The position numbers were made by a program, and so were the translations under genes. The notes beneath the pieces were generated by a model. The model was not told the DNA's origin. It did not search any database and saw nothing but the letters and a program-made list of their open reading frames with translations. A stretch of DNA of 64,000 bases from assembly GCA_016219515.1 (NCBI GenBank), contig JACRMU010000065.1:1705-65704 (forward strand), read 5' to 3'. Positions 6,793-31,114 of this stretch are shown in pieces; the stretch's first letter is position 1, and the number at the start of each line of letters is the position of its first letter. Source of the stretch: Deltaproteobacteria bacterium. Lineage in GTDB: Bacteria > Desulfobacterota > Deferrimicrobia > Deferrimicrobiales > Deferrimicrobiaceae.

Positions 6793-8259
6793 TCAGGCCC
6801 CGTCCTTCCGGGAATGCGGCTTGCCGTGCTCGGCGCCTTGCGAGGATTTCCCCTCGTCGCGGAAACGGTAGTAATCCTCCGGAGTGTTGATGTTCCGGAA
6901 GGACAGGAATTCGGGATCGAACCGGGAGACCTCATCGCCTGCGATCTTCCGGACCTTCACCTTGTCGAAGAAGGAGACGACCCTTCCCTTGCCTGCGTGG
7001 AGGGTCTCCTGGATGGCTTGCAGCGCGCCCTTCCCGTAGACGGCGTGCAGCGGCTCCAGCCCCTCCTTCCCCTCGGGGACGACCACGTCGCTCCCCTCCG
7101 CCAGGGAGGCCAGGTGCCGGATCAGAACGGGGTTGAGGTGCGGCATGTCGCAGGCCACGACGAACACATGCGGATCTTCGCTGTGGAACAGGCCGGAGTG
7201 GATCCCGGAAAGCGCCCCCATCCCGGGGATGAGATCCCTCACCTTCCGGCAGGGGAGGAAATCGAAAAGCTCCGGCGTATTGGTGACGACGAGGACCTCC
7301 CGGAAGAGGGCCGCCATCTGCCGGTGGATCGCCTCGACGAACCTTCCCCCCTGGTGGGGGAGCAGCGCCTTGTTGCTCCCCATGCGGCTGGAGGTCCCGC
7401 CGGCCAGGATGACGCCTGTGACGCCGGCGATCCTGTTCTCTTCCGGGGGGACGTCGATCCGCTCCGTGCCGGTATATAGATTGAATCTGCCGCCGCGCGC
7501 GTATCCGATGACGGCGATCCCAAGTTCCTGCGCCATCCGGACCGCCAGATCGGTGGGCGAGCTGCGGGAGGCGATGAGGGCGATCCCCAGGGAGGCCGCC
7601 TTCGCGACCATCTCGGAGGAGATCCTTCCGGAGGTGACGAGGATCTTCCCGGAGAGGTCGATGTTCTTGAGGAGCGCCTCGCCGGCGATCCGGTCCAGCG
7701 TGTTGTGCCGCCCGAGGTCCTCCGCGTGCAGCAGGACCGACCGGCCGTCGCCGACGGCGGCGGAGTGGATCCCGCCGTGGTTTTTGTATCTATCCGACTG
7801 CCGCGCCAGCTCGTTCATCATGGCGAAGACGTCGCCCGGGGAGAAGACCGTGTCGTCCATTCCCGTGACGCCCGGGGCGGGTATGTTTTCCTTCCCTCCG
7901 GCGGGGGGATGCAGGTGGAACGTGATCCCCGCTCCGCAGCCGGAGGTGAGCGTCGGCGTCAGCCGTGCCGGGACCTCTCCGCGGATCCGCACGGTGGCGG
8001 CGCCGAAATCTCCGCATACGCTGAGCACGAGAAGGTCGTCGGCGCTTTTCACCAGCCCCTGCATCCGGAGGAAGCCCGCCACCAGGTAGACCAGGTCGTG
8101 GGGGGAGGCGATCAGCGTGGCGAGCTCGACGCCGTTGACGGTGAGGGCGATGGGGAACTCCCGGACCGGGCGGTGCTCCATTTCGGAGAGCCGGCGGCCG
8201 TCGAACCGCAGGACGGGGGGTGGCTTTTCCGGTTCTTCCCGGTCCTTGCCGCGGCTCAT
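6793..8259 (-). CDS. fdhD: FdhD sulfurtransferase fused to MobA molybdenum cofactor guanylyltransferase
   Basis: The N-terminal half matches FdhD (…LVTSGRISSEMVAKAASLGIALIASRSSPTDLAV). The C-terminal half has the MobA motif GVILAGGTSSRMGSNKALL. The start ATG 8257-8259 overlaps the fdhE stop (ATGA). Confidence 0.8.
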   Translation of the reverse strand: MSRGKDREEPEKPPPVLRFDGRRLSEMEHRPVREFPIALTVNGVELATLIASPHDLVYLVAGFLRMQGLVKSADDLLVLSVCGDFGAATVRIRGEVPARLTPTLTSGCGAGITFHLHPPAGGKENIPAPGVTGMDDTVFSPGDVFAMMNELARQSDRYKNHGGIHSAAVGDGRSVLLHAEDLGRHNTLDRIAGEALLKNIDLSGKILVTSGRISSEMVAKAASLGIALIASRSSPTDLAVRMAQELGIAVIGYARGGRFNLYTGTERIDVPPEENRIAGVTGVILAGGTSSRMGSNKALLPHQGGRFVEAIHRQMAALFREVLVVTNTPELFDFLPCRKVRDLIPGMGALSGIHSGLFHSEDPHVFVVACDMPHLNPVLIRHLASLAEGSDVVVPEGKEGLEPLHAVYGKGALQAIQETLHAGKGRVVSFFDKVKVRKIAGDEVSRFDPEFLSFRNINTPEDYYRFRDEGKSSQGAEHGKPHSRKDGA

Positions 8260-9104
8260 CTTCCCCTCTCGAATCCTTCTTTCCCCGCCAGAAGGTCCAG
8301 GTGAAGGGTCGCCAGGTCCTCCGCTTCCAGCGGGACGTCCCCGTTCCCCTTCCGCGAATCCCTGGTCTTGATGTACCGGCTGCACTTGCGGCAGACGCCG
8401 ACCCGCACCGGCTCGTCCCCGGCGAGGAAATAGGAGAGGGTCTCCGGGTCCTGGTTGCCGCAGTAGGGGCAGCGGAGGCGCGGGAAGGGCCAGCGGAAGG
8501 AGCAGGCGGAGCAGCACAGGAAACGCTTCCCCTCTTCGCCCGCCAGTTCGTCCATCCCGGCCCGGGATCCGCAGACCGGACAATATCCCTCTTTCCACCC
8601 TTCGACCGTTTTCGGGTCGACCGATTCCGCGGCCAGCGAAAGCGCCGTCTTGAGAGAAGTTTCGAGAATGAATGTCAAAAGAGGCGGGCGGACGGAAATC
8701 GCGGCGGCCGCTTCCTCCAGGCTTTTCCGTTCCCGTTGGAGGCAGGCGGATAAGAGCAATGGTAGTTCCAGGGCGTTTTCTTCCAGCGCGCGCCCGATCC
8801 GGTCGAGTTCCACTCCTCCCAGCGGATCCCGGTTCGCCCCGCGTATGACGCCCACGATGCCGCTGAGAAACGCCCCTGCCTTTTCCCGGTCCACGGAAAG
8901 GTTCTCCGGGGCGACCAGGGGGAGCCCGCCGTTTACCCGTTCCGCGCCGTGCTGTTCCGGGAGGGCGAAGGATATGCCGGTGTCGCCCTCCCGTCCGTCG
9001 ATGTAGGCGAAGAGGCCCTGGAACAGCGAGAGGACCTCACGGTATTCCGGCCGCTCCCGGACCGTGCGATCCAGATGTTCCCTTTTCCTGCCGGTCTGCG
9101 GCAT
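8256..9104 (-). CDS. fdhE: formate dehydrogenase accessory protein FdhE
   Basis: Four Cys clusters (CPVCGS, CCSACSF, CPYCGN, CRKCSRY) in the FdhE arrangement. Immediately downstream of fdnI. Confidence 0.85.
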   Translation of the reverse strand: MPQTGRKREHLDRTVRERPEYREVLSLFQGLFAYIDGREGDTGISFALPEQHGAERVNGGLPLVAPENLSVDREKAGAFLSGIVGVIRGANRDPLGGVELDRIGRALEENALELPLLLSACLQRERKSLEEAAAAISVRPPLLTFILETSLKTALSLAAESVDPKTVEGWKEGYCPVCGSRAGMDELAGEEGKRFLCCSACSFRWPFPRLRCPYCGNQDPETLSYFLAGDEPVRVGVCRKCSRYIKTRDSRKGNGDVPLEAEDLATLHLDLLAGKEGFERGR

Positions 9105-10513: not shown

Positions 10514-13500
10514 TCACCCCTTGCTCTTGATATTGACCATGAACGCCTTGGTTTCCGGGATCATGGTGTTGGCGTCTCCGACGGTCGGCGTGAGAAGGTT
10601 CGCTGAATCGCCGACGGCCGGTGTGAACCACCCGAAGCACCAGGGCATCCCCACCTGATGGACGGTGGAGTTGGCCACCTTGAACGGCTTGAAGCGGGGG
10701 GTGACAACGGCGACGGCCTCGATCTTTCCCCTCGCCGAGGAGACCTCCAGGAGGTCTCCGCTCTTGATGTTCTTCTCCTTGGCCAGCTCCACGGACATTT
10801 CAACGAACTGCCGGGGCTGAAGCTCCAGCAGCCAGGGGACGTTCCGGGAGAGGACCCCGGTCTGCCAATGCTCCGTGACCCGGTACGTCGTGGCCACGAA
10901 CGGGAACCGGGTGTCGCACGAGGCGAATACGTCTTCGGGCATCCCGTCGGCCGAGAAGATCTTGGCGGCGGGGTTTACGCGCTGCTTGGACAGAGGGTTC
11001 TCCTGGACCGGGCACTCCAGCGGCTCGTAGTGCTCGGGGAAGGGGCCCTCCTTCAGGCCGGGCCCGAAGATCGCGGCGACCCCGTCCGCCCGCATGATGT
11101 ACGGCTTCTTCCCCTCCTTCTCGTTGCCCATCGGGGGCCACGGCCCGTCGGGGACGTCTCCCTCCCACTTGCCGAACTTGCCGTCCGGCATGGGGGCGGT
11201 CGGGTTCCAGAAGATGACCGCCTTCTTCACGTTGAACGGCTTGCCGTCGAGGTCGACGGAAGCGCGGTTATAGATGATCCGGCGATTGACCGGCCAAGCC
11301 CACGCCCACTCGGAGAAGAGGCCCAGGCCCGTGGGGTCTTTCTTCCCCCGCCGCGCCATCATGTTCCCGTTTTGGTTGTAGCTCTGGCAGTAGATCCAGC
11401 TCCCGCAGGAGGTCGTGCCGTCGGCCTGGAGCAGCGCGAAACCGGGCACCAGCTCCCCCTTCTTGCCCAGGAGCTTCTCCTTGGGCGGCTTCTGCCCGGG
11501 TTTCGGCTTGTTCGGCACGTCGGCCAGGAAGTAGCCGTTGATCTCCTTGGCCACCGCGTGGATGTCCACCGTCTTGACGGTGCCGTCGGCCCGCTTGAAG
11601 CCGTACCCCCAGGCGAGGTTCATCAGCGGATCGGGGAAGGCCCCTTTCTCCTTGGCGTAGAGCCCCTTGATCCGGTAGAACAGGTCGTTCATGATCTCGG
11701 CGTCCGGCCGGGACTGCCCCAGGGGTTTGACCGCCGGGACGCGCCACTGCGCCATGCGCGACGAGTTCGTGATGCTCCCTTCCTTCTCGAACGAGGCGGC
11801 GGCCGGCAGGAAAAAAACCTCCGTCTTGATCTTGGCGGGATCCACCCCCGGTCCCTTCCAGAACGATGCGGTCTCGTTGTCGAAGAGGTTGACCGTCACC
11901 ATCCATTCCAGGGTGGCAAGCCCCTTGCGGACCTTCCCCGCGTTGGTGCCGGAGCAGGCGGGGTTCTGGCCCCAGGCGAAGAACCCCTTGTACTTTCCGC
12001 GCGCCATGTTGTCGAAGAGCATGATCCAGGAGGCGTTCATGCCAGGGTCGGTCTTGGGCAGCCAGTGGTATCCGAAGTCGTTCTGCTTGGTCGCCTTGGC
12101 CCCGTAGATCGCCTTGAGGTAGGAGACGATGTACTTGTTCCGGTTCCCCCACCAGTTCGCGCTCATCGGGTCTTTCGTCTTGGGCGTGTACTTCTCGATG
12201 TAGGCGGTGAGGTCCTTGATGTCCGCCGACGGAACCGGCATGTAGCCGGGCAGGATGTGGAAGAGAACGCCGTGGTCGGTCGACCCCTGGACGTTGGACT
12301 CGCCGCGCATCGCGTTCACGCCGCCGCCGGCCACGCCCATGTTGCCCAGCAGGAGCTGGATGATCGACATCGCCCGGATGTTCTGGGTCCCCACGGTGTG
12401 CTGGGTCCATCCCATCGCGTAGAGGGAGGTCCCGGCCCGGTCCGGCTTCCCCGTAGATGCATACGCCTCGTAGACCTTGAGGAGCGTTTCCTTCGGGGTG
12501 CCCGTGATGCTGGAAACCATCTCCGGCGTGTACCGGGAGTAGTGCTTCTTCATCAGCTGGAACACGCAGCGCGGATTCGAGAGGGTTTCGTCCTTGACGA
12601 TCTTGTCGTCCGTGTCCTTCTGGAAGGACCACTTCTTGGCGTCATAGGAGCGCTTCTTGGCGTCGTAGCCGGAGAAGAGGCCGGCGAGCTCCCCGGGGCC
12701 TTTGAAGTCCGGGCCGACCACGTAGCTCGCGTTGGTGTACTTCTTGACCGCCACATCCATGTAGAGCTTGTTCTGAAGAATGTAGTTGATCATCCCGCCG
12801 AGGAAGGCGATGTCGGTTCCCGAGCGCAAAGGAGCGTAGATGTCGGCCTTCGACGCGCTTCGGGTGAAGCGCGGGTCCACCACGATGATCTTTCCGCCCG
12901 CGTCTTTCGCCTTCATGATCCACCGGAAGGCGACCGGGTGGTTCTCCGCGGGGTTGGCCCCCATGATGAGCACTACGTCAGCGTTCTTTACGTCGATCCA
13001 GTGATTCGTCATCGCGCCTCGTCCGAACGACTCTGCCAGAGCCGCTACAGTGGCGCTGTGTCATATTCGCGCCTGGTGCTCGATGGCGACCAGGCCCAAC
13101 CCCCTCATCATCTTCTGGAGGAGATAGCACTCCTCGTTGTCCAGGGCGGCGCTCCCGACGTGGGCGATCCCCATCGTCCGGTTGACGACCGCCTCGATCT
13201 CCTTCTCCACTTCCTTGTCGCCCACCTTCTCCTTGACCTTGATCCTGCTCTTGGCCTGGAAGGTGGCGTCCCGGGTCTTTTTCGTCCTCTTGGCGATCTC
13301 GTCGAGCGCCCAGTCCCAGGAGACTTCCTTCCACTCCTTCTCCCCCGGGGCCCGGTAGAGCGGCTTGGTCACCCGCGCCGCGTTGTCCCGGAGCTGAATG
13401 ACGGAAGAACCCTTCGGGCAGAGCGACCCCTCGTTGATGGGGTGGTCCGGGTCCCCCTCGGCGTTGATGAGGTTGCCGTTCAGCGAGTGGAGGATCAATC

Positions 13501-13663
13501 CGCATCCGACCGAGCAGTAGGGGCAGATGCTCGTCGACTCCTTCGCGTACCGGATCTGCAGGTCCTGGGCTTTCGCCTCGACCGGCTCGAGGGAGAGGCC
13601 GAGTACGCCGGCGGCCAGTCCCGCCCCGGAGAGCTTGAACAATTCCCTCCTGGAAATTCCCAT
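10514..13663 (-). CDS. fdhA: periplasmic formate dehydrogenase catalytic (alpha) subunit, selenocysteine-containing, Tat-exported
   Basis: Track ORFs 13061-13846 and 10514-13012 are one gene joined by an in-frame TGA at 13061-13063: …AIEHQARI-[U]-HSATVAALAESFG… is the canonical FdnG Sec site. Tat motif MGISRRELFKLSGAGLAAG. RBS aaggagg 7 nt before ATG 13663. Sec is codon 201, comparable to E. coli FdnG. Confidence 0.85.
13061..13063 (-). other. selenocysteine (UGA) codon of fdhA
   Basis: In-frame TGA within the conserved EHQARI-U-HS motif. Read directly from the sequence. Confidence 0.85.
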
Positions 13664-13921
13664 GCGTTGCACCTCCTTTTCTTGAGGCGAGTTAATGAAT
13701 AAAAAAAAAGGAATCCATGCCTGGATTCTTGGAATTCGCGGGGTGTGGAATCGGAGGTGCGAAGAAATATTATAAAATGGTTTTATAAAGATCAATAAAA
13801 AAATTACTTGGGAAACAGTATGTTTTCTCAATAGAATGAATTTCATAGTATTTCTGTAGGGTTTCGTTCGGTACCCACTGAATCGTGAAAAAAAATGCGT
13901 TTTATTTTGTATTGACTCGAT

Positions 13922-13945
13922 CGTTATAAATCATATTATATAACG
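13922..13945. promoter_or_regulatory. ModE-type operator-like palindrome CGTTATAaatcatattaTATAACG in the fdhA/modE divergent AT-rich region
   Basis: 24-nt near-palindrome with CGTTATA/TATAACG arms, resembling E. coli ModE boxes (CGTTATATT-N-ATATAACG type). Lies 68 nt upstream of modE and inside the roughly 350-nt AT-rich region upstream of fdhA. Confidence 0.5.
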
Positions 13946-14012
13946 CTCGACAAGCAGGTCCGCGTGCAGGCGCAGGTCGTTTTCTAAAAAAATAAGGAGG
14001 GCACGGCCGCCG

Positions 14013-14825
14013 ATGCGCCGGGCAAGGAACAAGCTGGAAGTCTCGGGGGCGGTCTGGCTCCATAAGGCGGACGCCGTCCTCCTGGGAAGCGACCGGATCG
14101 GGCTGCTGGAGAAGATCGAAGAGAACGGCTCGATCACGAAGGCGGCCCGGGCGGCGGGGATCAGCTACAAGACGGCATGGGATGTCGTGAGCGCCATCAA
14201 CAACCTCTCGGAAAAGCCGCTCGTCCGGCGGACGACGGGCGGCAAGGGGGGAGGAGGTACCGTTCTCACCGAGGAAGGGAGGGAGGTCGTCCGAAGATAC
14301 CGGGTCCTGCAGCGGGAGCACGAGAGGTTCCTCGGGGGGCTTTCGGAAAAAATCGGAGACGTGGAGAACTTCTATCGGTTTTTGCGGAGGATCGCCATGA
14401 GAGTGAGCGCGAGAAACACGTTTTTGGGGAAGGTCGCGGGCGTCAAGAAAGGGGCCGTCAGCGCGGAGGTGACGCTTTCCCTCAAGGGGGGCGATACGGT
14501 CGTCGCGGTCATCACGAAGGAGAGCGTGGAAAGCCTGGGCCTCCGGAAGGGGATGGAGGCGTACGCCATCATCAAGGCGAGCTCGGTCCTGCTGGGGAAG
14601 GATCTCCACGAAGCGAGGATCAGCGCGCGGAACCTCCTGTGCGGCACCGTGGAGAAGCTGGCGGAAGGCCCGGTGAACGAGGACGTGACCGTGAAACTCT
14701 CGGGAGGGAACGTACTGACCTCCGTCATCACCCGGGAAAGCGCGAAGAAGCTGGCACTCAAGCCCGGCGACCACGTCTGCGCCGTCATCAAGGCGTCCAG
14801 CGTCATCCTGGGGGTGAGCGGGTGA
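14013..14825 (+). CDS. modE: molybdate/tungstate-responsive transcriptional regulator ModE (HTH + two TOBE/Mop domains)
   Basis: N-terminal ModE HTH (SITKAARAAGISYKTAWD) followed by two Mop-domain repeats (…VTLSLKGGDTVVAVITKESVESLGL… and …VTVKLSGGNVLTSVITRESAKKLAL…). Strong RBS taaggaggg. Confidence 0.85.
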   Translation: MRRARNKLEVSGAVWLHKADAVLLGSDRIGLLEKIEENGSITKAARAAGISYKTAWDVVSAINNLSEKPLVRRTTGGKGGGGTVLTEEGREVVRRYRVLQREHERFLGGLSEKIGDVENFYRFLRRIAMRVSARNTFLGKVAGVKKGAVSAEVTLSLKGGDTVVAVITKESVESLGLRKGMEAYAIIKASSVLLGKDLHEARISARNLLCGTVEKLAEGPVNEDVTVKLSGGNVLTSVITRESAKKLALKPGDHVCAVIKASSVILGVSG

Positions 14826-15685
14826 CGCGGCGGGGAACGAGGGAATTCCATCGCCGTAGTTGCATTCTGCCGGCCTGGTGTCTCCTTCTTGCATTCATTG
14901 CCGGTATGCTGCCCGGCTCGCCGGTGCTGGCGATGGAACGGCTGCGGATGTCCACCACCACCTCCACGGAAAACTCCGGGCTCCTCGCCGTGCTGCTCCC
15001 GCCCTTCGAGAAGAAGCATGGCTGCAAAGTCGACGTGATCGCCGTGGGGACCGGGAAATCGCTCAAGCTGGGCGAGACCGGGGACGTGGACGTGGTGTTC
15101 GTCCACGCGCGGAAACCGGAGGACAAGTTCGTCGCCGACGGGTTCGGGGTGAACCGCAGGGACGTCATGTACAACGACTTCGTAATCCTGGGCCCCCCGG
15201 ACGATCCGGCGGGGATCCGGAACACGGTCAGCGCTTCGGACGCCTTTGCCCGGATCGCGGCGGCGCAGGCCCGCTTCGTCTCCCGGGGAGACGAGTCCGG
15301 CACCCACCAGAAGGAAAAGGAGATCTGGAAGGCCGCCGGGATCGTCCCGAAGGGGAAGTGGTACCTGGAGGCCGGCCAGGGGATGGGGGAAGTGATCCAG
15401 ATGGCGGCCCAGGTGCGCGGCTACACGCTCGCCGACCGGGGGACGTACATCGCGTATCGGAAGAAGACCGACCTCGCCGTCCTCCGGCAGGGGGACAAGG
15501 GGCTTTGGAACCCCTACGGCGTCATCGCCGTGAACCCGGCGAGGCACCCGCACGTGAAACACGGGCTGGCCATGAAGTTCATCGAATACCTGACCGGCGA
15601 GGAGGGTCGGCGGATCATCGCCGATTTCAAGATCGACGGGGAGCCGCTCTTCTTCGTCCACGGCCCGCATGAAGTGAAGCACTAA
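14822..15685 (+). CDS. tupA: tungstate ABC transporter substrate-binding protein TupA
   Basis: Carries the TupA-specific TTTSTENSGLL motif. GTG start overlaps the modE stop (GTGA). Signal-peptide-like N-terminus. The start codon choice is uncertain (the track's in-frame ORF begins at 14177). Confidence 0.75.
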   Translation: MTRRGTREFHRRSCILPAWCLLLAFIAGMLPGSPVLAMERLRMSTTTSTENSGLLAVLLPPFEKKHGCKVDVIAVGTGKSLKLGETGDVDVVFVHARKPEDKFVADGFGVNRRDVMYNDFVILGPPDDPAGIRNTVSASDAFARIAAAQARFVSRGDESGTHQKEKEIWKAAGIVPKGKWYLEAGQGMGEVIQMAAQVRGYTLADRGTYIAYRKKTDLAVLRQGDKGLWNPYGVIAVNPARHPHVKHGLAMKFIEYLTGEEGRRIIADFKIDGEPLFFVHGPHEVKH

Positions 15686-16372
15686 GTGGATTTCCTGCTC
15701 GACTCATTGAGGGCCTCGCTCTACCTCATCGTGACGCGGGACCCGGCTTTCTGCCATGCGGTCTGGACCTCCCTGTACGTTTCCTTCTGGTCGATCATCT
15801 TTGCGGCGCTCCTCGGGATTCCCGCCGGGCTTGCCGTGGGGCTTACGGAGTTTCCCCTGAAGCGGACGGTCATCACCGGACTCAACAGCCTGATGGCCGT
15901 CCCCACGGTGCTCATCGGCCTCCTGGTCTACGGGTTCATCAGCCGCCAGGGGCCGTTCGGAGGGTTCGGTCTCCTGTTCACCCCCTCCGCCATCATCGTC
16001 GGCGATGCGCTCCTTGCCGCGCCGATCGTGGCCAACCTCGCCTTGAGCTCCGTGCGGGGGGCGAATGCCGCCATCCTTCCCACCGCGATGACGCTCGGGG
16101 GAGACCGTCTCCAGAGCGTCCTTACGCTGGTCTCCGAAATCCGTTTCGGCATGGTGGCCGCCGTGATCGCGGGGTTCGGAAGGGTCGTCTCCGAGGTCGG
16201 GGTGGCGATGATGCTGGGGGGGAACATCCTCGGGTACACGCGGACGATGACCACCGCGATCGCCCTGGAGACGAGCAAAGGGGAGTTTGCCCTGGGGATC
16301 GCCCTGGGGATCGTCCTGATGGCGGTTGCGCTGGCGGTGAACGTCATTTTTCAGTTCCTGCAGAGGAAGTAG
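15686..16372 (+). CDS. tupB: tungstate ABC transporter permease TupB
   Basis: Six-TM ABC permease with the EAA-like loop. GTG start immediately after the tupA stop. Confidence 0.85.
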   Translation: MDFLLDSLRASLYLIVTRDPAFCHAVWTSLYVSFWSIIFAALLGIPAGLAVGLTEFPLKRTVITGLNSLMAVPTVLIGLLVYGFISRQGPFGGFGLLFTPSAIIVGDALLAAPIVANLALSSVRGANAAILPTAMTLGGDRLQSVLTLVSEIRFGMVAAVIAGFGRVVSEVGVAMMLGGNILGYTRTMTTAIALETSKGEFALGIALGIVLMAVALAVNVIFQFLQRK

Positions 16373-16374
16373 CA

Positions 16375-17061
16375 TTGGAACCGCTCTATCGCCTGGAATC
16401 GGTCGGGAAGCGCTACGGGGAAAAGGAGGTCCTGGCCATTCCCGCCCTCGAGATCCGCGAGGGGAGCTTCCATTTCCTCACCGGCCCGAACGGCTCGGGG
16501 AAGACGACGCTCCTTTCCATCCTGGCGTTCCTCCTCCGCCCGACGTCCGGGGCGCTGTTCTATGCGGGGATGCGCGTCGAATGGGAGGGGAAGACCCTGG
16601 TTGCGCTGCGGCGGCAGGTGACGCTTCTCCACCAGTCTCCCTACCTGTTCGACGGGACGGTTTTTCACAACGTCGCCTATGGCCTCAAGGTAAGGGGGAT
16701 CGACGGCGCGGCCGGGAAAGAACGGATCGACAAGGCGTTGAAAATGGTAGGATTGGAAGGGTTTGGGGACAGGAGAGCGAGGGCGCTGTCCGGGGGCGAG
16801 ATGCAGCGGGTGGCCCTGGCGAGGGCGCTCGTGCTGGCCCCTCGCGCGCTCCTCCTCGACGAGCCGCTGGCCAACGTGGACCGGGAGAGCGCCGAAGTGA
16901 TCCGCGGCGTCATCGTCGGGCTGCCCGCCAGGGGGACCACCGTGATCATGGCCACGCACGACCCGGGCCGCGCGGGAGGGCAGGGCGACGAGCGCATCCG
17001 GCTCGAGGCAGGAAGGATCTGCCGCGTGACGTCCGGATGCGTTGAAGGGGAGAGACGGTGA
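16375..17061 (+). CDS. tupC: tungstate ABC transporter ATP-binding protein TupC
   Basis: Walker A GPNGSGKTT, ABC signature LSGGEMQRVALARAL, Walker B LLLDEP. TTG start 3 nt after the tupB stop. Confidence 0.85.
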   Translation: MEPLYRLESVGKRYGEKEVLAIPALEIREGSFHFLTGPNGSGKTTLLSILAFLLRPTSGALFYAGMRVEWEGKTLVALRRQVTLLHQSPYLFDGTVFHNVAYGLKVRGIDGAAGKERIDKALKMVGLEGFGDRRARALSGGEMQRVALARALVLAPRALLLDEPLANVDRESAEVIRGVIVGLPARGTTVIMATHDPGRAGGQGDERIRLEAGRICRVTSGCVEGERR

Positions 17062-17080
17062 GGAACGAAAGCAGGACAGG

Positions 17081-18289
17081 ATGATCCCGTTCGAGGAAGC
17101 GAGAAACCGGATCCTCGCCCGCGTCGCACCGCTGGGCGGTGAACGAGTGCCGATCTTCGCCGCGGCCGGGAGAGTGCTTGCCGAGGAAGTTCGCGCTCCC
17201 GCGGACATGCCGTCGTGGGACAACTCCGCGATGGACGGCTACGCCGTACGCAGCGGGGACTGCGCGGGGCCGGCGGCGCTGAAGCTCACCGGGTACCGGG
17301 CGGCGGGGGATGCCGCGGACCCCAAGGTCACCCCTGGATGCGCCGTCAAGATCATGACCGGCTCCCCCATCCCGGAAGGGTGCGACGCCGTGGTCCCCTT
17401 CGAGGAAACCGAAGAGTCCGGCGGCTTCGTGCGGATCCGCGCCGCGGTCAAGCCCCGCGCCCACATCCGTTTCCGCGGAGAGGACGTGAAGGCCGGCGAC
17501 CGGGTCATCCCCGCGGGAACGGTGCTCCGCCCGCCGGAGATCAGCATGCTGGCCTCGTTCGGGAAGGCGTTCGTCCCGGTGTACCGGAAGGCGCGGGTGG
17601 CGCTGCTTTCCACCGGCGACGAACTTGTGGAGCTTGGCGAACCGCTCTCCCCGGGGAAAATCGTCAACAGCAACACCGTTTCGCTCGCGGCGGCCATCGA
17701 GGAGGCCGGGGCGGCGCCGGTGCTCCTCGGCATCGCCGTCGACGACAAGGAATGCCTCCGGGGAAAGATCCGGGAGGGGCTTGCCGCCGATGCCCTCGTC
17801 ACCTCTGCCGGAGTTTCTGCGGGCGACCGGGACTTCGTCCGCGAAGTGCTTGCCGAACTGTCCGTGGAAGAGGTTTTCTGGAAAGTGGACATCAAGCCGG
17901 GCCGCCCCACCGCCTTCGGGATGAAGGACGGGAAGCCGGTCTTCTCCCTGCCGGGGAACCCCGTTTCTTCCCTCGTTACGTTCGAAGTCTTCGTCCGCCC
18001 GGCGCTGCTGAAGATGATGGGGCACCCCGAGCCGCAAAAGCGCCTCGTGAAGGCGGTCCTCAAGGAGCCCATCCGGAAAAAGGCGGGAAAGGCGCACTTC
18101 TTCCGCGTGAGGGTCGCCGTGGAGGAGGGGGAGTACGCCGCCTGGATGTCCGGCGACCAGAACACCGGGATCCTCCGCACGATGGTTCTCGCCAACGGGA
18201 TCGCCGTGCTGCCGGCGGAGAGGACCGATTTCAAGGCCGGCGAGAAGATCGATGTCTGCCTCCTATACCAGTCCGCGACGCCGAACTGA
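17081..18289 (+). CDS. moeA: molybdopterin molybdenum/tungsten transferase MoeA
   Basis: MoeA N-terminus MIPFEEARNRIL and a conserved MoeA/gephyrin E-domain core (…GDELVELGEPLSPGKIVNSNT…GRPTAFG…). The track's TTG at 17042 is a possible alternative start. Confidence 0.85.
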   Translation: MIPFEEARNRILARVAPLGGERVPIFAAAGRVLAEEVRAPADMPSWDNSAMDGYAVRSGDCAGPAALKLTGYRAAGDAADPKVTPGCAVKIMTGSPIPEGCDAVVPFEETEESGGFVRIRAAVKPRAHIRFRGEDVKAGDRVIPAGTVLRPPEISMLASFGKAFVPVYRKARVALLSTGDELVELGEPLSPGKIVNSNTVSLAAAIEEAGAAPVLLGIAVDDKECLRGKIREGLAADALVTSAGVSAGDRDFVREVLAELSVEEVFWKVDIKPGRPTAFGMKDGKPVFSLPGNPVSSLVTFEVFVRPALLKMMGHPEPQKRLVKAVLKEPIRKKAGKAHFFRVRVAVEEGEYAAWMSGDQNTGILRTMVLANGIAVLPAERTDFKAGEKIDVCLLYQSATPN

Positions 18290-18431: not shown

Positions 18432-20708
18432 TTGAGCGAATCGCGGGAACCAGCGGCCCGTCACGCCCGTGTCAAAACGTACATCATTGTCGTTTCGCTG
18501 ATCTGGACGGCACTGGCCGGATCCTCCTTCTTGTATAACCTGCGGCAACATCGCAAGGGGATCCGGGAGATGGCGCGCTCGGAGGCCCGATCCAGCATCA
18601 ACAAGGACCTCGCCTACCACCGCTGGGCCTCGGGCCACGGCGGGGTCTACGTCACGGTGACCGGGAAAACCCCGCCGAACCCCTACCTCTCGAACATCCG
18701 GGAACGGGACATCGGTACGCCGTCGCGCCGCCCGCTGACCCTGATCAACCCGGAGTACATGACGCGCCAGGTTCATGAGTTGAGCCTTGCGCAGTACGGA
18801 TTCCGGGGTCACATCACGAGTCTGAAGCCGATCCGTCCCGGCAACGCTCCCGACCCCTGGGAGGCGGAGGCCCTTCGGGCCTTCGAGCAGGGGAAGACCG
18901 AAGTCAGCTCCGTCGAGACGATCGAAAGGGAACCCTACCTGCGGTTGATGCTTCCGTTCGCCGCCGAGTCGCACTGCCTCATGTGCCACGCGGCGCAGGG
19001 GTACAAGGAAGGCGACATCCGCGGCGGGATCAGCGTCTCGGTCCCCCTTGCGCCGTTCCAGGCCGCGTCGGGGGGACATATGCGATCGGAGATCGCGGGA
19101 CATTGCCTCCTCTGGCTCCTCGGCCTGGCCGGGATCGGCGCGGGCGGCAGCCGGATCCTGAAGCAGATCCGCGAGCGCGACCGGTCCGAGGAGGCGCTGC
19201 GGGAAGCGCACCAGCGGCTGGCCTTCCACATTCAGCGGTTGCCGATGGGGTACGTCGTGTGGGGCGACGATTTCCGCGTGCGGGAGTGGAACCCCACGGC
19301 CGAGAAAATCTTCGGGTGGACCGCCGCCGAGGCGGTCGGGAAGCATTCCTACGACCTGATCGTTCCGCCGAAAGCGCAGTCCCCGGTGGATCGGGCCTGG
19401 GCGAAGCTCCTGGACGGGGAAGAAATGGTCCAGTCGGTGACCGCCAACCTCCGCAAGGGGGGGAAGGAAATCACCTGCGAATGGTTCCACGTCCCCCTGC
19501 GCGGAGCGGATGGAAGCGTGATCGGCATTCTCTCCACGGTCCACGACATCACGGAGAAGGCCCGGCTGGAGAAACAGCTCCAGACCGCCCAGCGGATGGA
19601 GACCGTGGGGACCCTTGCGGGCGGCATCGCGCACGATTTCAACAACGCCCTGACGGGGATCCTGGGATTCAGCCAGCTGCTGCGGCTGCGGATGGCGGGA
19701 GACCCGAAGGCGGCCGGCGATCTCGACGAGGTCATGCGGTGCGCGGAACGGGCGGCCACGTTGACGAGACAGCTCCTGACCTTCGCCCGCCGCCAGGTCA
19801 TCGAGCCGGTCAACCTGGACCTCAACGCCGCGGTGAACGACCTGATGAAGCTCATCGGGAAAGTGACGGGGGAGAGCATCGAGAAAAGGGCGATCCTCGC
19901 CAAGGGACTTCCGACCGTCCGCGCCGATCGCGCCCAGCTGGAGCAGGTGCTCATGAACCTGGTCCTGAACGCCCGGGATGCCATGCCGGGCGGCGGCGTC
20001 CTGTCGGTGGAAACCGAGGACGTCACATTCGACGAGTCCTACATCGATCGCTACCCCTATGTGAAGGCCGGGCGATACGCGGCGCTGGTGGTCTCCGACA
20101 CGGGGATCGGCATGGACGAGAAGACCCGGGAGCGGGTCTTCGAGCCGTTCTTCACCACGAAGGCGCCGGACAAGGGAACGGGGCTGGGGCTGGCGATGGT
20201 GTACGGGATCGTCAAGCAGCACGACGGGTTCATCCACCTCTACAGCGAGCCCGGCATGGGGACGACGTTCAAGGTGTACTTCCCCGCGGTGCAGGCCGCG
20301 CCCGATGCGGCGGCGGAGAGGAGGGAAGCGCCGCTCCGCGGAGGGAACGAAACGGTTCTTCTGGCGGAGGACGAGGAGACGATCCGGACGCTCGCGGAGC
20401 GGATCCTCAAGGAATACGGGTACACCGTGCTGACCGCGAGGAACGGGGAGGAGGCGATCGAGGTCTTTCGCCGGAACAAGGGCATATCGCTCGCCGTGCT
20501 GGACGTGGTCATGCCCAGGATCGGGGGGAAGGAAGCGTACGAGGCGATGCGCGCGGAGAACCCGGAGTTGAAGGTGATCTTCACGAGCGGCTATTCCGCC
20601 GACGCGGTTCACGAATCGTTCGTCATCGAACCCGGCCTGCAGTTCCTGCCGAAGCCGTACACGCCGACCATCCTGGCGAGGAAGGTCCGGGAAGCGCTGG
20701 ACGCATGA
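18432..20708 (+). CDS. hybrid sensor histidine kinase/response regulator with N-terminal heme-type sensor (CxxCH), PAS, HisKA, HATPase and REC domains
   Basis: TM helix then a CLMCH motif in a DUF3365-like sensor region. PAS, H-box IAHDFNNAL, G-boxes DTGIGMD and GTGLGLAMV, and a C-terminal receiver domain (LLAEDEE…LDVVMP). Confidence 0.85.
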   Translation: MSESREPAARHARVKTYIIVVSLIWTALAGSSFLYNLRQHRKGIREMARSEARSSINKDLAYHRWASGHGGVYVTVTGKTPPNPYLSNIRERDIGTPSRRPLTLINPEYMTRQVHELSLAQYGFRGHITSLKPIRPGNAPDPWEAEALRAFEQGKTEVSSVETIEREPYLRLMLPFAAESHCLMCHAAQGYKEGDIRGGISVSVPLAPFQAASGGHMRSEIAGHCLLWLLGLAGIGAGGSRILKQIRERDRSEEALREAHQRLAFHIQRLPMGYVVWGDDFRVREWNPTAEKIFGWTAAEAVGKHSYDLIVPPKAQSPVDRAWAKLLDGEEMVQSVTANLRKGGKEITCEWFHVPLRGADGSVIGILSTVHDITEKARLEKQLQTAQRMETVGTLAGGIAHDFNNALTGILGFSQLLRLRMAGDPKAAGDLDEVMRCAERAATLTRQLLTFARRQVIEPVNLDLNAAVNDLMKLIGKVTGESIEKRAILAKGLPTVRADRAQLEQVLMNLVLNARDAMPGGGVLSVETEDVTFDESYIDRYPYVKAGRYAALVVSDTGIGMDEKTRERVFEPFFTTKAPDKGTGLGLAMVYGIVKQHDGFIHLYSEPGMGTTFKVYFPAVQAAPDAAAERREAPLRGGNETVLLAEDEETIRTLAERILKEYGYTVLTARNGEEAIEVFRRNKGISLAVLDVVMPRIGGKEAYEAMRAENPELKVIFTSGYSADAVHESFVIEPGLQFLPKPYTPTILARKVREALDA

Positions 20709-30181: not shown

Positions 30182-31114
30182 TTACCGCATCTCCGCGAAG
30201 AACTCGGGATAATACCTGAAAACGTAAGGATAATATTTTTTGACGAGCATCAAGTAGGTCCCGTCGTTCTTGCTCCGCTGTAAAAACCGGTTGAAGGCCT
30301 TCCGGAGTTCCGGGGACTCCTTGGGGAAAGCGACCGCCATGTGCTGCCGATCGCTGATGGGGCCGATGACCTTGATTTTTCCCGGCCATTTCTGAAGGGA
30401 GAGCAGGGCATCCGGGACGTCGAGAAGCGACAGCTCCGCGTCCCCCTTGATCACCGCGGGGGCGATGTCGTCGAGCCGCCCCCGGAAGGCGAGGCTTTTT
30501 GCCCCGGCCTCTTCCAGCCCGTACAGCGACGGATCGAGACAAGTGCCGGGGGTCCCGAGAAGCGTACGTCCCCTGAGAAGTTTTTTTACCTCCCCGATAT
30601 CCTTTTCGAGGCTGCCGGCCGGCCGGATCGGCCGGATCTTCGAGTCCCCGCGCGCCACCACCCATACCTGGGTCGGGAAAACCGGATCGGAGTAGGCGAC
30701 GATTTTTTCCCGCCACGGGAGAACGGTGATCCCGTTCGCGGCAATATCCCCACGGACCGGGCTCTCTTCGAGGAACTCCACATCCGTCCCTTTCACCTTG
30801 ATTTTCCGTCCGATGAGGGCGGGAAAGAGCTCGTTCCAGTCCACGGGAACATACTCGTATTTCACGCCGAGGTCCTTCGCGAAGAGCCGTACAAGGTCGA
30901 CATCCATACCGTCGCCGCCGCCGGTGACGAAGTTGGCGTAAGGGATCCCCAAATGTCGGAGCACCCCTTTTTCCTTGATTTCGGCCAGATCGCCGCCAAG
31001 GCAGATGGAACCGGCAAGGAGGAAAACGGTCAGCGCGCAGGCGAAGAACAACCCCCGGTTTATATTGATATATATCGGTTGGGACGATGGTTTCCCGACA
31101 CGAAACAGGTCCAT
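30182..31114 (-). CDS. periplasmic solute-binding protein, family 3 (amino-acid-binding type), signal-peptide-bearing
   Basis: SBP_bac_3-like fold features. No cognate permease or ATPase adjacent, so probably a sensor-associated binding protein. Confidence 0.7.
   Translation of the reverse strand: MDLFRVGKPSSQPIYININRGLFFACALTVFLLAGSICLGGDLAEIKEKGVLRHLGIPYANFVTGGGDGMDVDLVRLFAKDLGVKYEYVPVDWNELFPALIGRKIKVKGTDVEFLEESPVRGDIAANGITVLPWREKIVAYSDPVFPTQVWVVARGDSKIRPIRPAGSLEKDIGEVKKLLRGRTLLGTPGTCLDPSLYGLEEAGAKSLAFRGRLDDIAPAVIKGDAELSLLDVPDALLSLQKWPGKIKVIGPISDRQHMAVAFPKESPELRKAFNRFLQRSKNDGTYLMLVKKYYPYVFRYYPEFFAEMR

What the first reader, a model, noticed from the sequence alone, without database searches (positions are those of the whole stretch)
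13922..13945. ModE-box-like 24-nt palindrome between fdhA and modE
CGTTATAaatcatattaTATAACG closely resembles E. coli ModE operators. It sits in a roughly 350-nt AT-rich divergent promoter region, 68 nt upstream of modE-tupABC and upstream of the fdhA operon. This is consistent with molybdate/tungstate-dependent control of both the transporter and the FDH. A second short inverted repeat, GGAATCCAtgccTGGATTC (13712-13730), lies in the fdhA 5' leader and is unexplained.
Basis: partly seen in the sequence, partly recalled or inferred. Interest (0 to 1): 0.5.

Follow-up and report, generated by a model that had tools for sequence, protein, structure and literature searches.

The report
ModE operator on a tungstate-uptake promoter
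The flagged palindrome is a textbook binding site for the molybdate/tungstate sensor ModE. It sits on the promoter of the operon that encodes ModE itself and a tungstate importer, so it is an ordinary, well-understood kind of metal-feedback switch in an uncultured bacterium.

Summary
CGTTATA-N10-TATAACG lies exactly at 13922-13945. It is unique in the 64-kb window: 38.9 bits on a ModE-box matrix against a maximum of 19.5 in 50 shuffled windows. Its half-sites and spacing match the E. coli K-12 modA operator (CGTTATA-N10-CATAACG).

The box lies over the spacer and -10 hexamer of a sigma-70-like promoter, TTGACT-16-TATTAT. That promoter drives modE-tupA-tupB-tupC-moeA. The encoded ModE is full length, with 36 of 60 residues identical to E. 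coli ModE across the DNA-binding segment.

Nine relatives (76-94% ModE identity) keep the box and eight keep TTGAC exactly 4 nt upstream of it, while the central six bases vary. In four of them a porin gene sits between the box and modE.

Best explanation: oxyanion-loaded ModE blocks this promoter, giving negative feedback and autoregulation of tungstate uptake.

Control of the formate dehydrogenase from this same site is not supported. fdhA has its own conserved promoter about 172 bp away, and the box-to-fdhA distance varies in relatives.

The "second inverted repeat" is really at 13710-13728. On the fdhA strand it is a terminator-like hairpin followed by U9 in the 5' leader, found only in the closest relatives.

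Verdict: a new member of a known kind, of low interest.

The parts
13922..13945 (.). ModE box: CGTTATA-N10-TATAACG. With flanks (13920-13947) it reads ATCGTTATAAA-TCATAT-TATATAACGCT.
   Evidence: It is unique in the window at 38.9 bits. Its half-sites and spacing match the E. coli modA operator. It is conserved in 9 relatives while the central 6 nt vary.
13912..13917 (+). -35 hexamer TTGACT of the modE-tup promoter, ending 4 nt before the box.
   Evidence: Promoter scan. TTGAC[T/C/G] is at the identical offset in 8 of 10 clade loci.
13934..13939 (+). -10 hexamer TATTAT with a 16-nt spacer. It lies inside the right half of the ModE box. The inferred transcription start is near 13946.
   Evidence: 10 of 12 matches to consensus. 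TAnTAT is at the same box positions in relatives. The transcription start is inferred, not mapped.
14013..14825 (+). modE: full-length ModE of 270 aa, with a winged-helix DNA-binding domain and two Mop/TOBE domains.
   Evidence: TIGR00637 scores 106.3 bits (cutoff 98.5). TIGR00638 scores 157.5 bits (cutoff 55) in two stretches. It is 35% identical to E. coli ModE, with 36 of 60 identical in the DNA-binding segment. It matches PDB 1O7L and 1B9M.
14822..15685 (+). tupA: periplasmic tungstate-binding protein. Its GTG start overlaps the modE stop codon (GTGA).
   Evidence: TupA is the only NCBIfam hit at 249.5 bits, below the 400-bit equivalog cutoff. It matches PDB 3LR1, a tungstate-binding protein, at E 5.5e-106.
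15686..16372 (+). tupB: permease.
   Evidence: NF041773 TupB, 198 bits over the full length, below the equivalog cutoff.
16375..17061 (+). tupC: ABC ATPase of 228 aa with no C-terminal TOBE domain.
17042..18289 (+). moeA: molybdopterin molybdotransferase/tungsten-insertion paralogue. It is the last gene of the operon and overlaps tupC by 20 nt.
   Evidence: NF007960, 382 bits. The gene order is conserved in L123, L082, L002 and L007.
10514..13663 (-). fdhA: Tat-exported FdnG-type formate dehydrogenase alpha subunit with an in-frame TGA (selenocysteine) at 13058-13060. It is the divergent neighbour of modE and is not shown to be controlled by the box.
   Evidence: the translation reads HQARI*HS. 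TIGR01553 scores 1100 bits.
13767..13795 (-). Putative fdhA promoter: -35 TTGATC (13795-13790), 17-nt spacer, -10 TAATAT (13772-13767). The inferred start is about 13760-13762.
   Evidence: Read. The block is conserved in six relatives; L123 and L082 have TTGAAA-17-TATTAT. It falls below the scan tool's 9-of-12 threshold in the window.
13701..13728 (-). Terminator-like element in the fdhA 5' leader: hairpin GAATCCA-ggca-TGGATTC (13728-13711), then C plus T9 (13709-13701).
   Evidence: Hairpin energy is -8.8 kcal/mol in the window and -7.1 in L123 and L082. The hairpin is absent in L084 and L002.

Best explanation
The palindrome is the operator of the ModE protein encoded immediately downstream.

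Proposed mechanism:
- A ModE dimer loaded with tungstate or molybdate binds CGTTATA-N10-TATAACG.
- The site covers the spacer and -10 hexamer of the sigma-70-type promoter of modE-tupA-tupB-tupC-moeA, so bound ModE keeps RNA polymerase off.
- When the oxyanion is scarce, ModE leaves the DNA and the cell makes the tungstate importer, the MoeA cofactor-insertion enzyme and more ModE.
- When the oxyanion accumulates, the operon, including modE, is shut down. This is negative feedback with autoregulation.

What is shown and what is inferred:
- Shown here: the site, its match to the known operator, its overlap with a conserved promoter, the cognate regulator gene, and conservation across relatives.
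- Inferred: actual binding, the direction of regulation (repression), and which oxyanion acts as co-repressor.
For: 1. The half-sites and spacing are those of the E. coli K-12 modA operator, CGTTATA-N10-CATAACG. The site matches 20 of the 22 specified positions of ATCGnTATATA-N6-TATATAnCGAT (PMC545781).

2. It is the only site in the window. It scores 38.9 bits against a maximum of 19.5 in shuffled windows, and the pattern occurs in 0 of 100 shuffles.

3. Promoter overlap. TTGACT-16-TATTAT is predicted with the -10 inside the box.

4. Phylogenetic footprint. Nine relatives at 76-94% ModE identity (L123, L082, L084, L124, L083, L002, L125, L003, plus L007 at 65%) carry the box. Eight of the ten clade loci have TTGAC exactly 4 nt upstream of it. 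The arms are kept while the central 6 nt differ in almost every locus.

5. Enrichment. In 1.06 Mb around modE homologues there are 88 sites with up to 2 mismatches, against 1.8 expected. Positions that were not part of the search pattern still reproduce the E. coli consensus. Of 104 full-length modE loci, 56 have a box within -2000 to +150 of modE, and none has one inside modE.

6. The cognate regulator is present. ModE is full length and passes the TIGR00637 and TIGR00638 cutoffs. It is 36/60 identical to E. coli ModE in the helix-turn-helix segment, with ISYKTAWD against ISYKSAWD. The E. coli molybdate ligand positions S126, R128, T163, S166, K183 and A184 align with identical residues (the residue list is from memory).

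7. Operon structure. The gene junctions are -4, 0, +2 and -20 nt.

8. Precedents. A ModE-like protein represses tup in C. jejuni (PMC3417520). modE sits 5' of tupABC in G. bemidjiensis (PMC2996986).
Against: - There is no binding or expression data.
- The transcription start is not mapped, so the overlap with the -10 rests on a consensus match.
- The left half deviates from the consensus at one inner position (TATAAA instead of TATATA).
- The oxyanion specificity of this ModE is unknown.
- About half of the more distant modE loci, mostly Geobacter, have no recognisable box near modE, so not every ModE orthologue autoregulates.
- The TupA and TupB scores are below NCBIfam equivalog cutoffs.
Confidence: 0.85

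Rival explanations
1. Bidirectional operator. ModE bound at 13922-13945 also activates or represses the divergent fdhA operon, so that synthesis of the formate dehydrogenase follows W/Mo supply.
For: - The divergent fdhA / modE-tup arrangement with a box in between is kept from 94% down to 65% ModE identity: L123, L082, L084, L124, L002, L003 and L007.
- E. coli ModE is known to act as an activator as well as a repressor (PMC12327845).
- A weak ModE-like sequence overlaps the putative fdhA -35 (13779-13802, 8.9-13.4 bits). It is stronger in L082 (17.5), L124 (13.9) and L002 (19.8).
Against: - The box centre is about 172 bp upstream of the inferred fdhA start.
- That distance is not kept: about 209 bp in L084 and about 427 bp in L002.
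- The box and promoter follow the transporter operon even where fdhA is not the neighbour (L125, L083, and Deferrimicrobium-type tupA-modE-tupBC loci).
- The weak second site in the window is within the shuffle range (p about 0.07). It coincides with AT-rich promoter elements that would be conserved anyway.
Confidence: 0.22
2. The site belongs to a different regulator that recognises a similar AT-rich palindrome, for example another winged-helix protein or a TunR/TaoR-type tungstate regulator. ModE would act elsewhere.
For: Other tungstate-responsive regulator families exist in related bacteria (TaoR, cited in PMC12327845). A different ModE-type motif, CGGTCACG-N14-CGTGACCG, is predicted in Desulfovibrio (PMC545781).
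Against: The sequence matches the E. coli-type ModE motif, not the Desulfovibrio-type motif. The adjacent regulator is a full-length ModE with a near-identical recognition segment. The motif co-occurs with modE in 56 of 104 loci.
Confidence: 0.06
3. There is no regulatory role. The palindrome is an accident of an AT-rich promoter, or a repeat or mobile-element remnant, or it acts as an RNA or DNA hairpin.
For: The region is 35% G+C and rich in TATA-like strings. The predicted hairpin energy is only -3.1 kcal/mol.
Against: - There is only one copy in 64 kb, and the score is far above local-composition shuffles.
- The G/C-containing outer positions (CG...CG) are conserved while the centre drifts.
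- Most of the box lies upstream of the inferred transcription start, so it would not be in the RNA.
- No Rfam family matches.
Confidence: 0.04

Closest known systems
E. coli ModE and the modABC operator (consensus ATCGnTATATA-N6-TATATAnCGAT)
   Same: The half-sites and 10-nt separation are identical: CGTTATA-N10-(T/C)ATAACG. The operator overlaps the promoter of an oxyanion ABC importer. The regulator has the same domain architecture and a 60% identical DNA-binding segment.
   Different: The target is a Tup-type tungstate importer plus moeA, not modABC. Here modE is the first gene of the regulated operon, giving autoregulation. In E. coli modE lies in a separate, divergently placed unit. Both Mop domains here carry the SARN motif, whereas the second E. 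coli domain reads NADN.
Geobacter ModE regulon: the G. sulfurreducens modDABC site, and G. bemidjiensis modE-tupABC
   Same: An E. coli-type box is predicted upstream of the transporter operon next to modE (PMC545781). modE lies 5' of tupABC in G. bemidjiensis (PMC2996986). ModE here is 56-62% identical to Geobacter-family ModE proteins.
   Different: This lineage consists of uncultured 'Deltaproteobacteria' MAGs. The operon ends with moeA, faces a Sec-containing FDH operon, and in several relatives begins with a Porin_O_P gene.
Campylobacter jejuni ModE-like regulator of modABC and tupABC
   Same: A ModE-type DNA-binding protein represses a tungstate Tup transporter in an organism whose formate dehydrogenase uses tungsten (PMC3417520).
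   Different: The C. jejuni protein lacks a metal-binding domain. The protein here has two Mop/TOBE domains and can plausibly sense the oxyanion directly.
Desulfovibrio ModE-domain/TunR and TaoR tungstate regulators
   Same: They give W/Mo-responsive transcriptional control of oxyanion transport and tungstoenzyme genes in related anaerobes.
   Different: The predicted motif is different (CGGTCACG-N14-CGTGACCG), and these proteins have a different sensor architecture. The site here does not resemble that motif.

Membership tests
ModE operator (E. coli-type ModE box) | Inverted repeat matching CGnTATATA-N6-TATATAnCG (TAYAT-N7-TAYAT core) | tested here: met
   ATCGTTATAAA-TCATAT-TATATAACGCT matches 20 of the 22 specified consensus positions. 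The arms and spacing are the same as the E. coli modA operator. It scores 38.9 bits on a matrix built from 86 sites.
ModE operator (E. coli-type ModE box) | Located in the promoter of a Mo/W transport or cofactor operon | tested here: met
   It overlaps the spacer and -10 of TTGACT-16-TATTAT, 68 nt before modE-tupABC-moeA. The promoter is predicted, not mapped.
ModE operator (E. coli-type ModE box) | A cognate full-length ModE is encoded in the genome | tested here: met
   modE at 14013-14825 scores TIGR00637 106.3 bits (cutoff 98.5) and TIGR00638 157.5 bits (cutoff 55). It matches PDB 1O7L and 1B9M over residues 26-267.
ModE operator (E. coli-type ModE box) | Conserved at orthologous positions, with arms constrained and centre free | tested here: met
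   Nine relatives carry the box, and the centre differs in nearly all of them. There are 88 sites against 1.8 expected in modE neighbourhoods.
ModE operator (E. coli-type ModE box) | Oxyanion-dependent binding by ModE (EMSA or footprint) and W/Mo-dependent repression in vivo | not testable with these tools
   This needs purified protein and expression assays.
TupABC tungstate transporter | The periplasmic protein belongs to the TupA family rather than ModA or WtpA | tested here: inconclusive
   TupA (NF041772) is the only NCBIfam hit, but 249.5 bits is below the 400-bit equivalog cutoff. The best solved relative is 3LR1, a 'tungstate-binding protein', at E 5.5e-106, followed by 5MY5. The TTTS motif is present. 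Ligand preference was not measured.
Intrinsic (rho-independent) terminator or attenuator (the second inverted repeat) | A stable G+C-containing hairpin immediately followed by a U tract | tested here: met
   A 7-bp stem with 3 G-C pairs, a 4-nt loop, then C plus T9 on the minus strand. The energy is -8.8 kcal/mol. The stem is weak for a terminator.
Intrinsic (rho-independent) terminator or attenuator (the second inverted repeat) | A conserved, mutually exclusive antiterminator structure, as required for a regulated attenuator | tested here: not met
   No alternative structure was found. The hairpin is present only in the window, L123 and L082, and is absent in L084, L124 and L002.
Moco/Tuco riboswitch (Rfam RF01055) in the fdhA leader | Match to the covariance model | tested here: not met
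   No hit even at E up to 10 in 13300-14300. No Rfam family reaches its gathering score anywhere in the window.

The most novel reading that the evidence does not exclude
The fdhA-modE intergenic region could be a two-layer W/Mo switch. In this reading the single strong ModE operator, together with the weak ModE-like site over the fdhA -35 (13779-13802), couples synthesis of a selenocysteine formate dehydrogenase to tungstate supply. The conserved fdhA leader would add a post-initiation checkpoint of an undescribed kind, through its 5' anti-SD block pairing with the ribosome-binding site and, in the closest relatives, a hairpin-U9 attenuator.
Probability: 0.12. Interest if true: 0.45.

Novelty: new member of a known kind. 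Interest (0 to 1): 0.15.

Why it matters
The result gives a confident, testable annotation for an uncultured lineage. Tungstate uptake and the linked MoeA are under ModE feedback from a single operator, and ModE autoregulates. It also shows that the E. coli-type ModE box is used unchanged in this lineage, which is useful for regulon prediction in MAGs. It adds no new principle. The only open question with some value is how the adjacent selenocysteine formate dehydrogenase operon is regulated.

Tried and rejected
- **Riboswitch or known RNA in the intergenic region.** The Rfam E-value search of 13300-14300 gave only chance-level hits and no Moco riboswitch. The whole-window gathering search gave nothing.
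- **More ModE boxes in the window.** The matrix scan found none. The third-best hit, at 31054, lies inside an ORF and is within the null range.
- **A second, fdhA-proximal ModE site (13779-13802).** It scores only 8.9-13.4 bits (p about 0.07 in local shuffles). It coincides with the UP/-35 elements of the fdhA promoter, so I kept it as a weak lead and not a finding.
- **Conserved RNA structure in the fdhA leader.** RNAalifold finds the anti-SD:SD helix but no compensatory changes. The single-sequence z-scores are -1.8 and -0.4.
- **Other boxes 1.5-2 kb upstream of modE in Geobacter loci L041 and L005.** Neighbouring ORFs gave uninformative Pfam hits (FKBP, GATase, HMGL-like) and I did not pursue them.
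- **Studholme and Pau 2003 (PMC317290).** The paper is not held in the library. The consensus is therefore cited through PMC545781 and PMC2700814.
- **Sigma-54 promoter for fdhA.** No TGG-N9-TGC is present on the fdhA strand, by inspection.

Full report
**Observation**

The sequence at 13922-13945 is CGTTATAaatcatattaTATAACG, two perfect 7-nt arms separated by 10 nt. With up to two mismatches allowed, the pattern occurs once in the 64-kb window and in none of 100 dinucleotide-preserving shuffles.

The site lies in the 349-nt gap between the fdhA ATG (13663, minus strand) and the modE ATG (14013). That gap is 35% G+C in a window that is 65% G+C.

**Genes around the site**

On the minus strand lies an FdnGHI-type formate dehydrogenase operon.
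- fdhA (10514-13663) has a twin-arginine signal peptide and an in-frame TGA at 13058-13060 in the motif HQARI*HS. It scores 1100 bits on TIGR01553.
- It is followed by fdhB, fdhC, fdhE and an fdhD-mobA fusion.

On the plus strand lie five tightly packed genes.
- modE (14013-14825).
- tupA (14822-15685). Its GTG start overlaps the modE stop codon as GTGA.
- tupB (15686-16372) and tupC (16375-17061).
- moeA (17042-18289).
- The junctions are -4, 0, +2 and -20 nt, which is what a single transcription unit looks like.

TupA is the only NCBIfam family hit for its gene, although the score is below the equivalog cutoff. Its best solved relative is 3LR1, deposited as a periplasmic tungstate-binding protein, at E 5.5e-106.

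**Is it a ModE box?**

I fetched the E. coli K-12 modE-modA region. Its modA operator reads CGTTATAttgtcgcctaCATAACG. The arms and 10-nt separation are the same as in the window, with one base different out of 14.

With flanks, the window site is ATCGTTATAAA-TCATAT-TATATAACGCT. That matches 20 of the 22 specified positions of the published E. coli consensus ATCGnTATATA-N6-TATATAnCGAT (PMC545781; also PMC2700814).

The protein next door is a full-length ModE.
- It passes the curated cutoffs of the ModE repressor-domain model and the Mop-domain model, the latter in two copies.
- It aligns end to end with E. coli ModE at 35% identity and matches PDB 1O7L and 1B9M.
- It is 36/60 identical across the helix-turn-helix segment, with ISYKTAWD against ISYKSAWD.
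- The positions I recall as the E. coli molybdate ligands (S126, R128, T163, S166, K183, A184) align with identical residues. The residue list is from memory.

**Relation to the promoter**

The consensus scan finds TTGACT (13912-13917), a 16-nt spacer and TATTAT (13934-13939), 10 of 12 matches. The -10 hexamer is therefore inside the right half of the box, and the -35 ends 4 nt before it.

With a start near 13946 (inferred), the box spans about -25 to -1. A protein bound there would exclude RNA polymerase.

**Comparative evidence**

ModE homologues were collected and their loci fetched from genomes and metagenomes. The closest are uncultured 'Deltaproteobacteria' MAGs and metagenome contigs. 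The best is 94% identical, so the window organism itself is not in the collections.

Every member of the clade carries the box: L123, L082, L084, L124, L083, L002, L125, L003, and L007 at 65% identity.
- Eight of the ten clade loci have TTGAC[T/C/G] exactly 4 nt upstream and TAnTAT at box positions 13-18.
- The central six bases differ in nearly every locus.
- In L002, L084, L124 and L125 the first gene after the box is a Porin_O_P gene, followed by modE. The promoter-operator unit therefore stays at the head of the operon whatever its first gene.
- In Deferrimicrobium-type loci the order is tupA-modE-tupBC-moeA with the box upstream of tupA.
- In Geobacter-type loci boxes lie before modE or between modE and modA.

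Across 1.06 Mb of these neighbourhoods there are 88 sites with up to 2 mismatches, against 1.8 expected from local-composition shuffles. The positions that were not part of the search pattern rebuild the E. coli consensus, atCGTTATATa-N6-tATATAACGat.

Of 104 loci with a full-length ModE, 56 have a box within -2000 to +150 of modE, and none has one inside the gene.

A matrix from these sites scores the window site at 38.9 bits. The runner-up scores 13.4 bits, and the maximum in 50 block-shuffled windows is 19.5 bits.

**Mechanism**

The best-supported reading is the classical one. Oxyanion-loaded ModE binds the operator and represses modE-tupABC-moeA. This gives negative feedback on tungstate import and cofactor insertion, and negative autoregulation of ModE.

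The literature supports each element.
- ModE binds DNA more tightly with molybdate and can repress uptake genes (PMC12327845).
- A ModE-like protein represses tup in C. jejuni (PMC3417520).
- modE lies 5' of tupABC in G. bemidjiensis (PMC2996986).

Binding, the sign of regulation and the effective oxyanion are inferred, not shown.

**Does the same site control fdhA?**

The comparative data do not support this.

Aligning the fdhA-proximal half of the spacer on the fdhA strand shows a conserved promoter-like block.
- It has an A/T-rich upstream stretch, then -35 TTGATC (13795-13790; TTGAAA in relatives), a 17-nt spacer, and -10 TAATAT (13772-13767; TATTAT in L123 and L082).
- This puts the start near 13760-13762 and the ModE box centre near -172.
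- That distance is about -209 in L084 and about -427 in L002.
- In L125 the divergent gene is fdhD/mobA, and in L083 no fdhA lies within the 3 kb of upstream DNA held.

A weak ModE-like sequence overlaps the fdhA -35 at 13779-13802.
- It scores 8.9-13.4 bits in the window (p about 0.07).
- It scores 17.5, 13.9 and 19.8 bits in L082, L124 and L002.
- It coincides with AT-rich promoter elements, so I cannot separate a low-affinity operator from promoter conservation.

I put ModE control of fdhA at about 0.2.

**The second inverted repeat**

On the fdhA strand this is the hairpin GAAUCCA-ggca-UGGAUUC followed by C plus U9. It lies about 35 nt before the start codon and is flagged as terminator-like.
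- Its predicted energy is -8.8 kcal/mol. L123 and L082 keep a 6-bp version (-7.1) with U9-U10.
- L084, L124 and L002 have no hairpin.
- It is therefore a recent, lineage-restricted element. It is possibly a leaky attenuator, but no conserved antiterminator was found.

More conserved is the first roughly 30 nt of the inferred leader, GCACCUCCGAUUCCACACCCCGCGAAUUCC.
- Its 5' octamer is the exact complement of the ribosome-binding sequence GGAGGUGC (duplex energy -14.7 kcal/mol).
- The helix is kept in six relatives through five one-sided C-to-U changes, with no compensatory pairs.
- The fold z-scores are unremarkable.
- No Rfam family matches.

**Verdict**

The extension to the formate dehydrogenase is not supported. 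This is a new member of a thoroughly known kind of regulatory site, and interest is low.

Noticed in passing
It lies in the fdhA 5' leader about 35 nt before the ATG. It is kept, in a 6-bp form, only in the closest relatives L123 and L082, and is absent in L084, L124 and L002.
   Followed up: yes
window 13731-13760 and 13669-13676 (minus strand): The first roughly 30 nt of the inferred fdhA leader is nearly invariant in six relatives, while the flanking DNA is unalignable. Its 5' octamer GCACCUCC is complementary to the ribosome-binding sequence GGAGGUGC. The pairing is kept through C-to-U changes only, with no compensatory pairs and no Rfam match.
   Followed up: partly
window 13769-13787: An AT palindrome, TTATAAAAtggTTTTATAA, overlaps the putative fdhA -10 and spacer. 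It is conserved as ATATAAAA-N3-TTTTATAT in L123 and L082, and nearly so in L084, L124 and L002. It could be an operator for an unknown regulator, or it could simply be promoter sequence.
   Followed up: partly
window 13779-13802: A degenerate ModE-like sequence, GGTTTTATAAAGATCAATAAAAAA, lies over the putative fdhA -35. It is weak in the window (p about 0.07) but scores 14-20 bits at the same place in L082, L124 and L002.
   Followed up: partly
L002 4724-5977; L124 4699-5952; L125 4726-5979; L084 about 1720-2980: In several relatives a 417-aa Porin_O_P outer-membrane protein gene sits between the ModE box and modE. It is absent from the window, L123 and L082. An anion porin is therefore sometimes the first gene of this ModE-controlled operon.
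   Followed up: yes
window 14013-14825: Both Mop/TOBE domains of this ModE carry the SARN motif (residues 132-135 and 204-207). The second domain of E. coli ModE reads NADN at the aligned place. This may mean a different oxyanion stoichiometry.
   Followed up: no
window 6793-8598 (minus strand): This is an FdhD-MobA fusion ORF, with the FdhD match at residues 129-382 and the MobA match at 391-583. The listed GTG start overlaps fdhE by about 340 nt and is probably too far upstream, because relatives are called at 467-483 aa.
   Followed up: partly
window 18432-20708 (plus strand): Directly after moeA lies a 758-aa ORF. By synteny with L123 it is a hybrid PAS sensor kinase/response regulator with a Tll0287-like domain. 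No terminator or promoter consensus is found between moeA and this ORF.
   Followed up: partly
window 1-64000: No Rfam family reaches its gathering score anywhere in the 64 kb. There is no tRNA, rRNA or riboswitch.
   Followed up: yes
L002 10715-12775: The relative L002 carries a second fdhA paralogue (72% identity) just downstream of moeA. No box precedes it, and the window has no such copy.
   Followed up: partly
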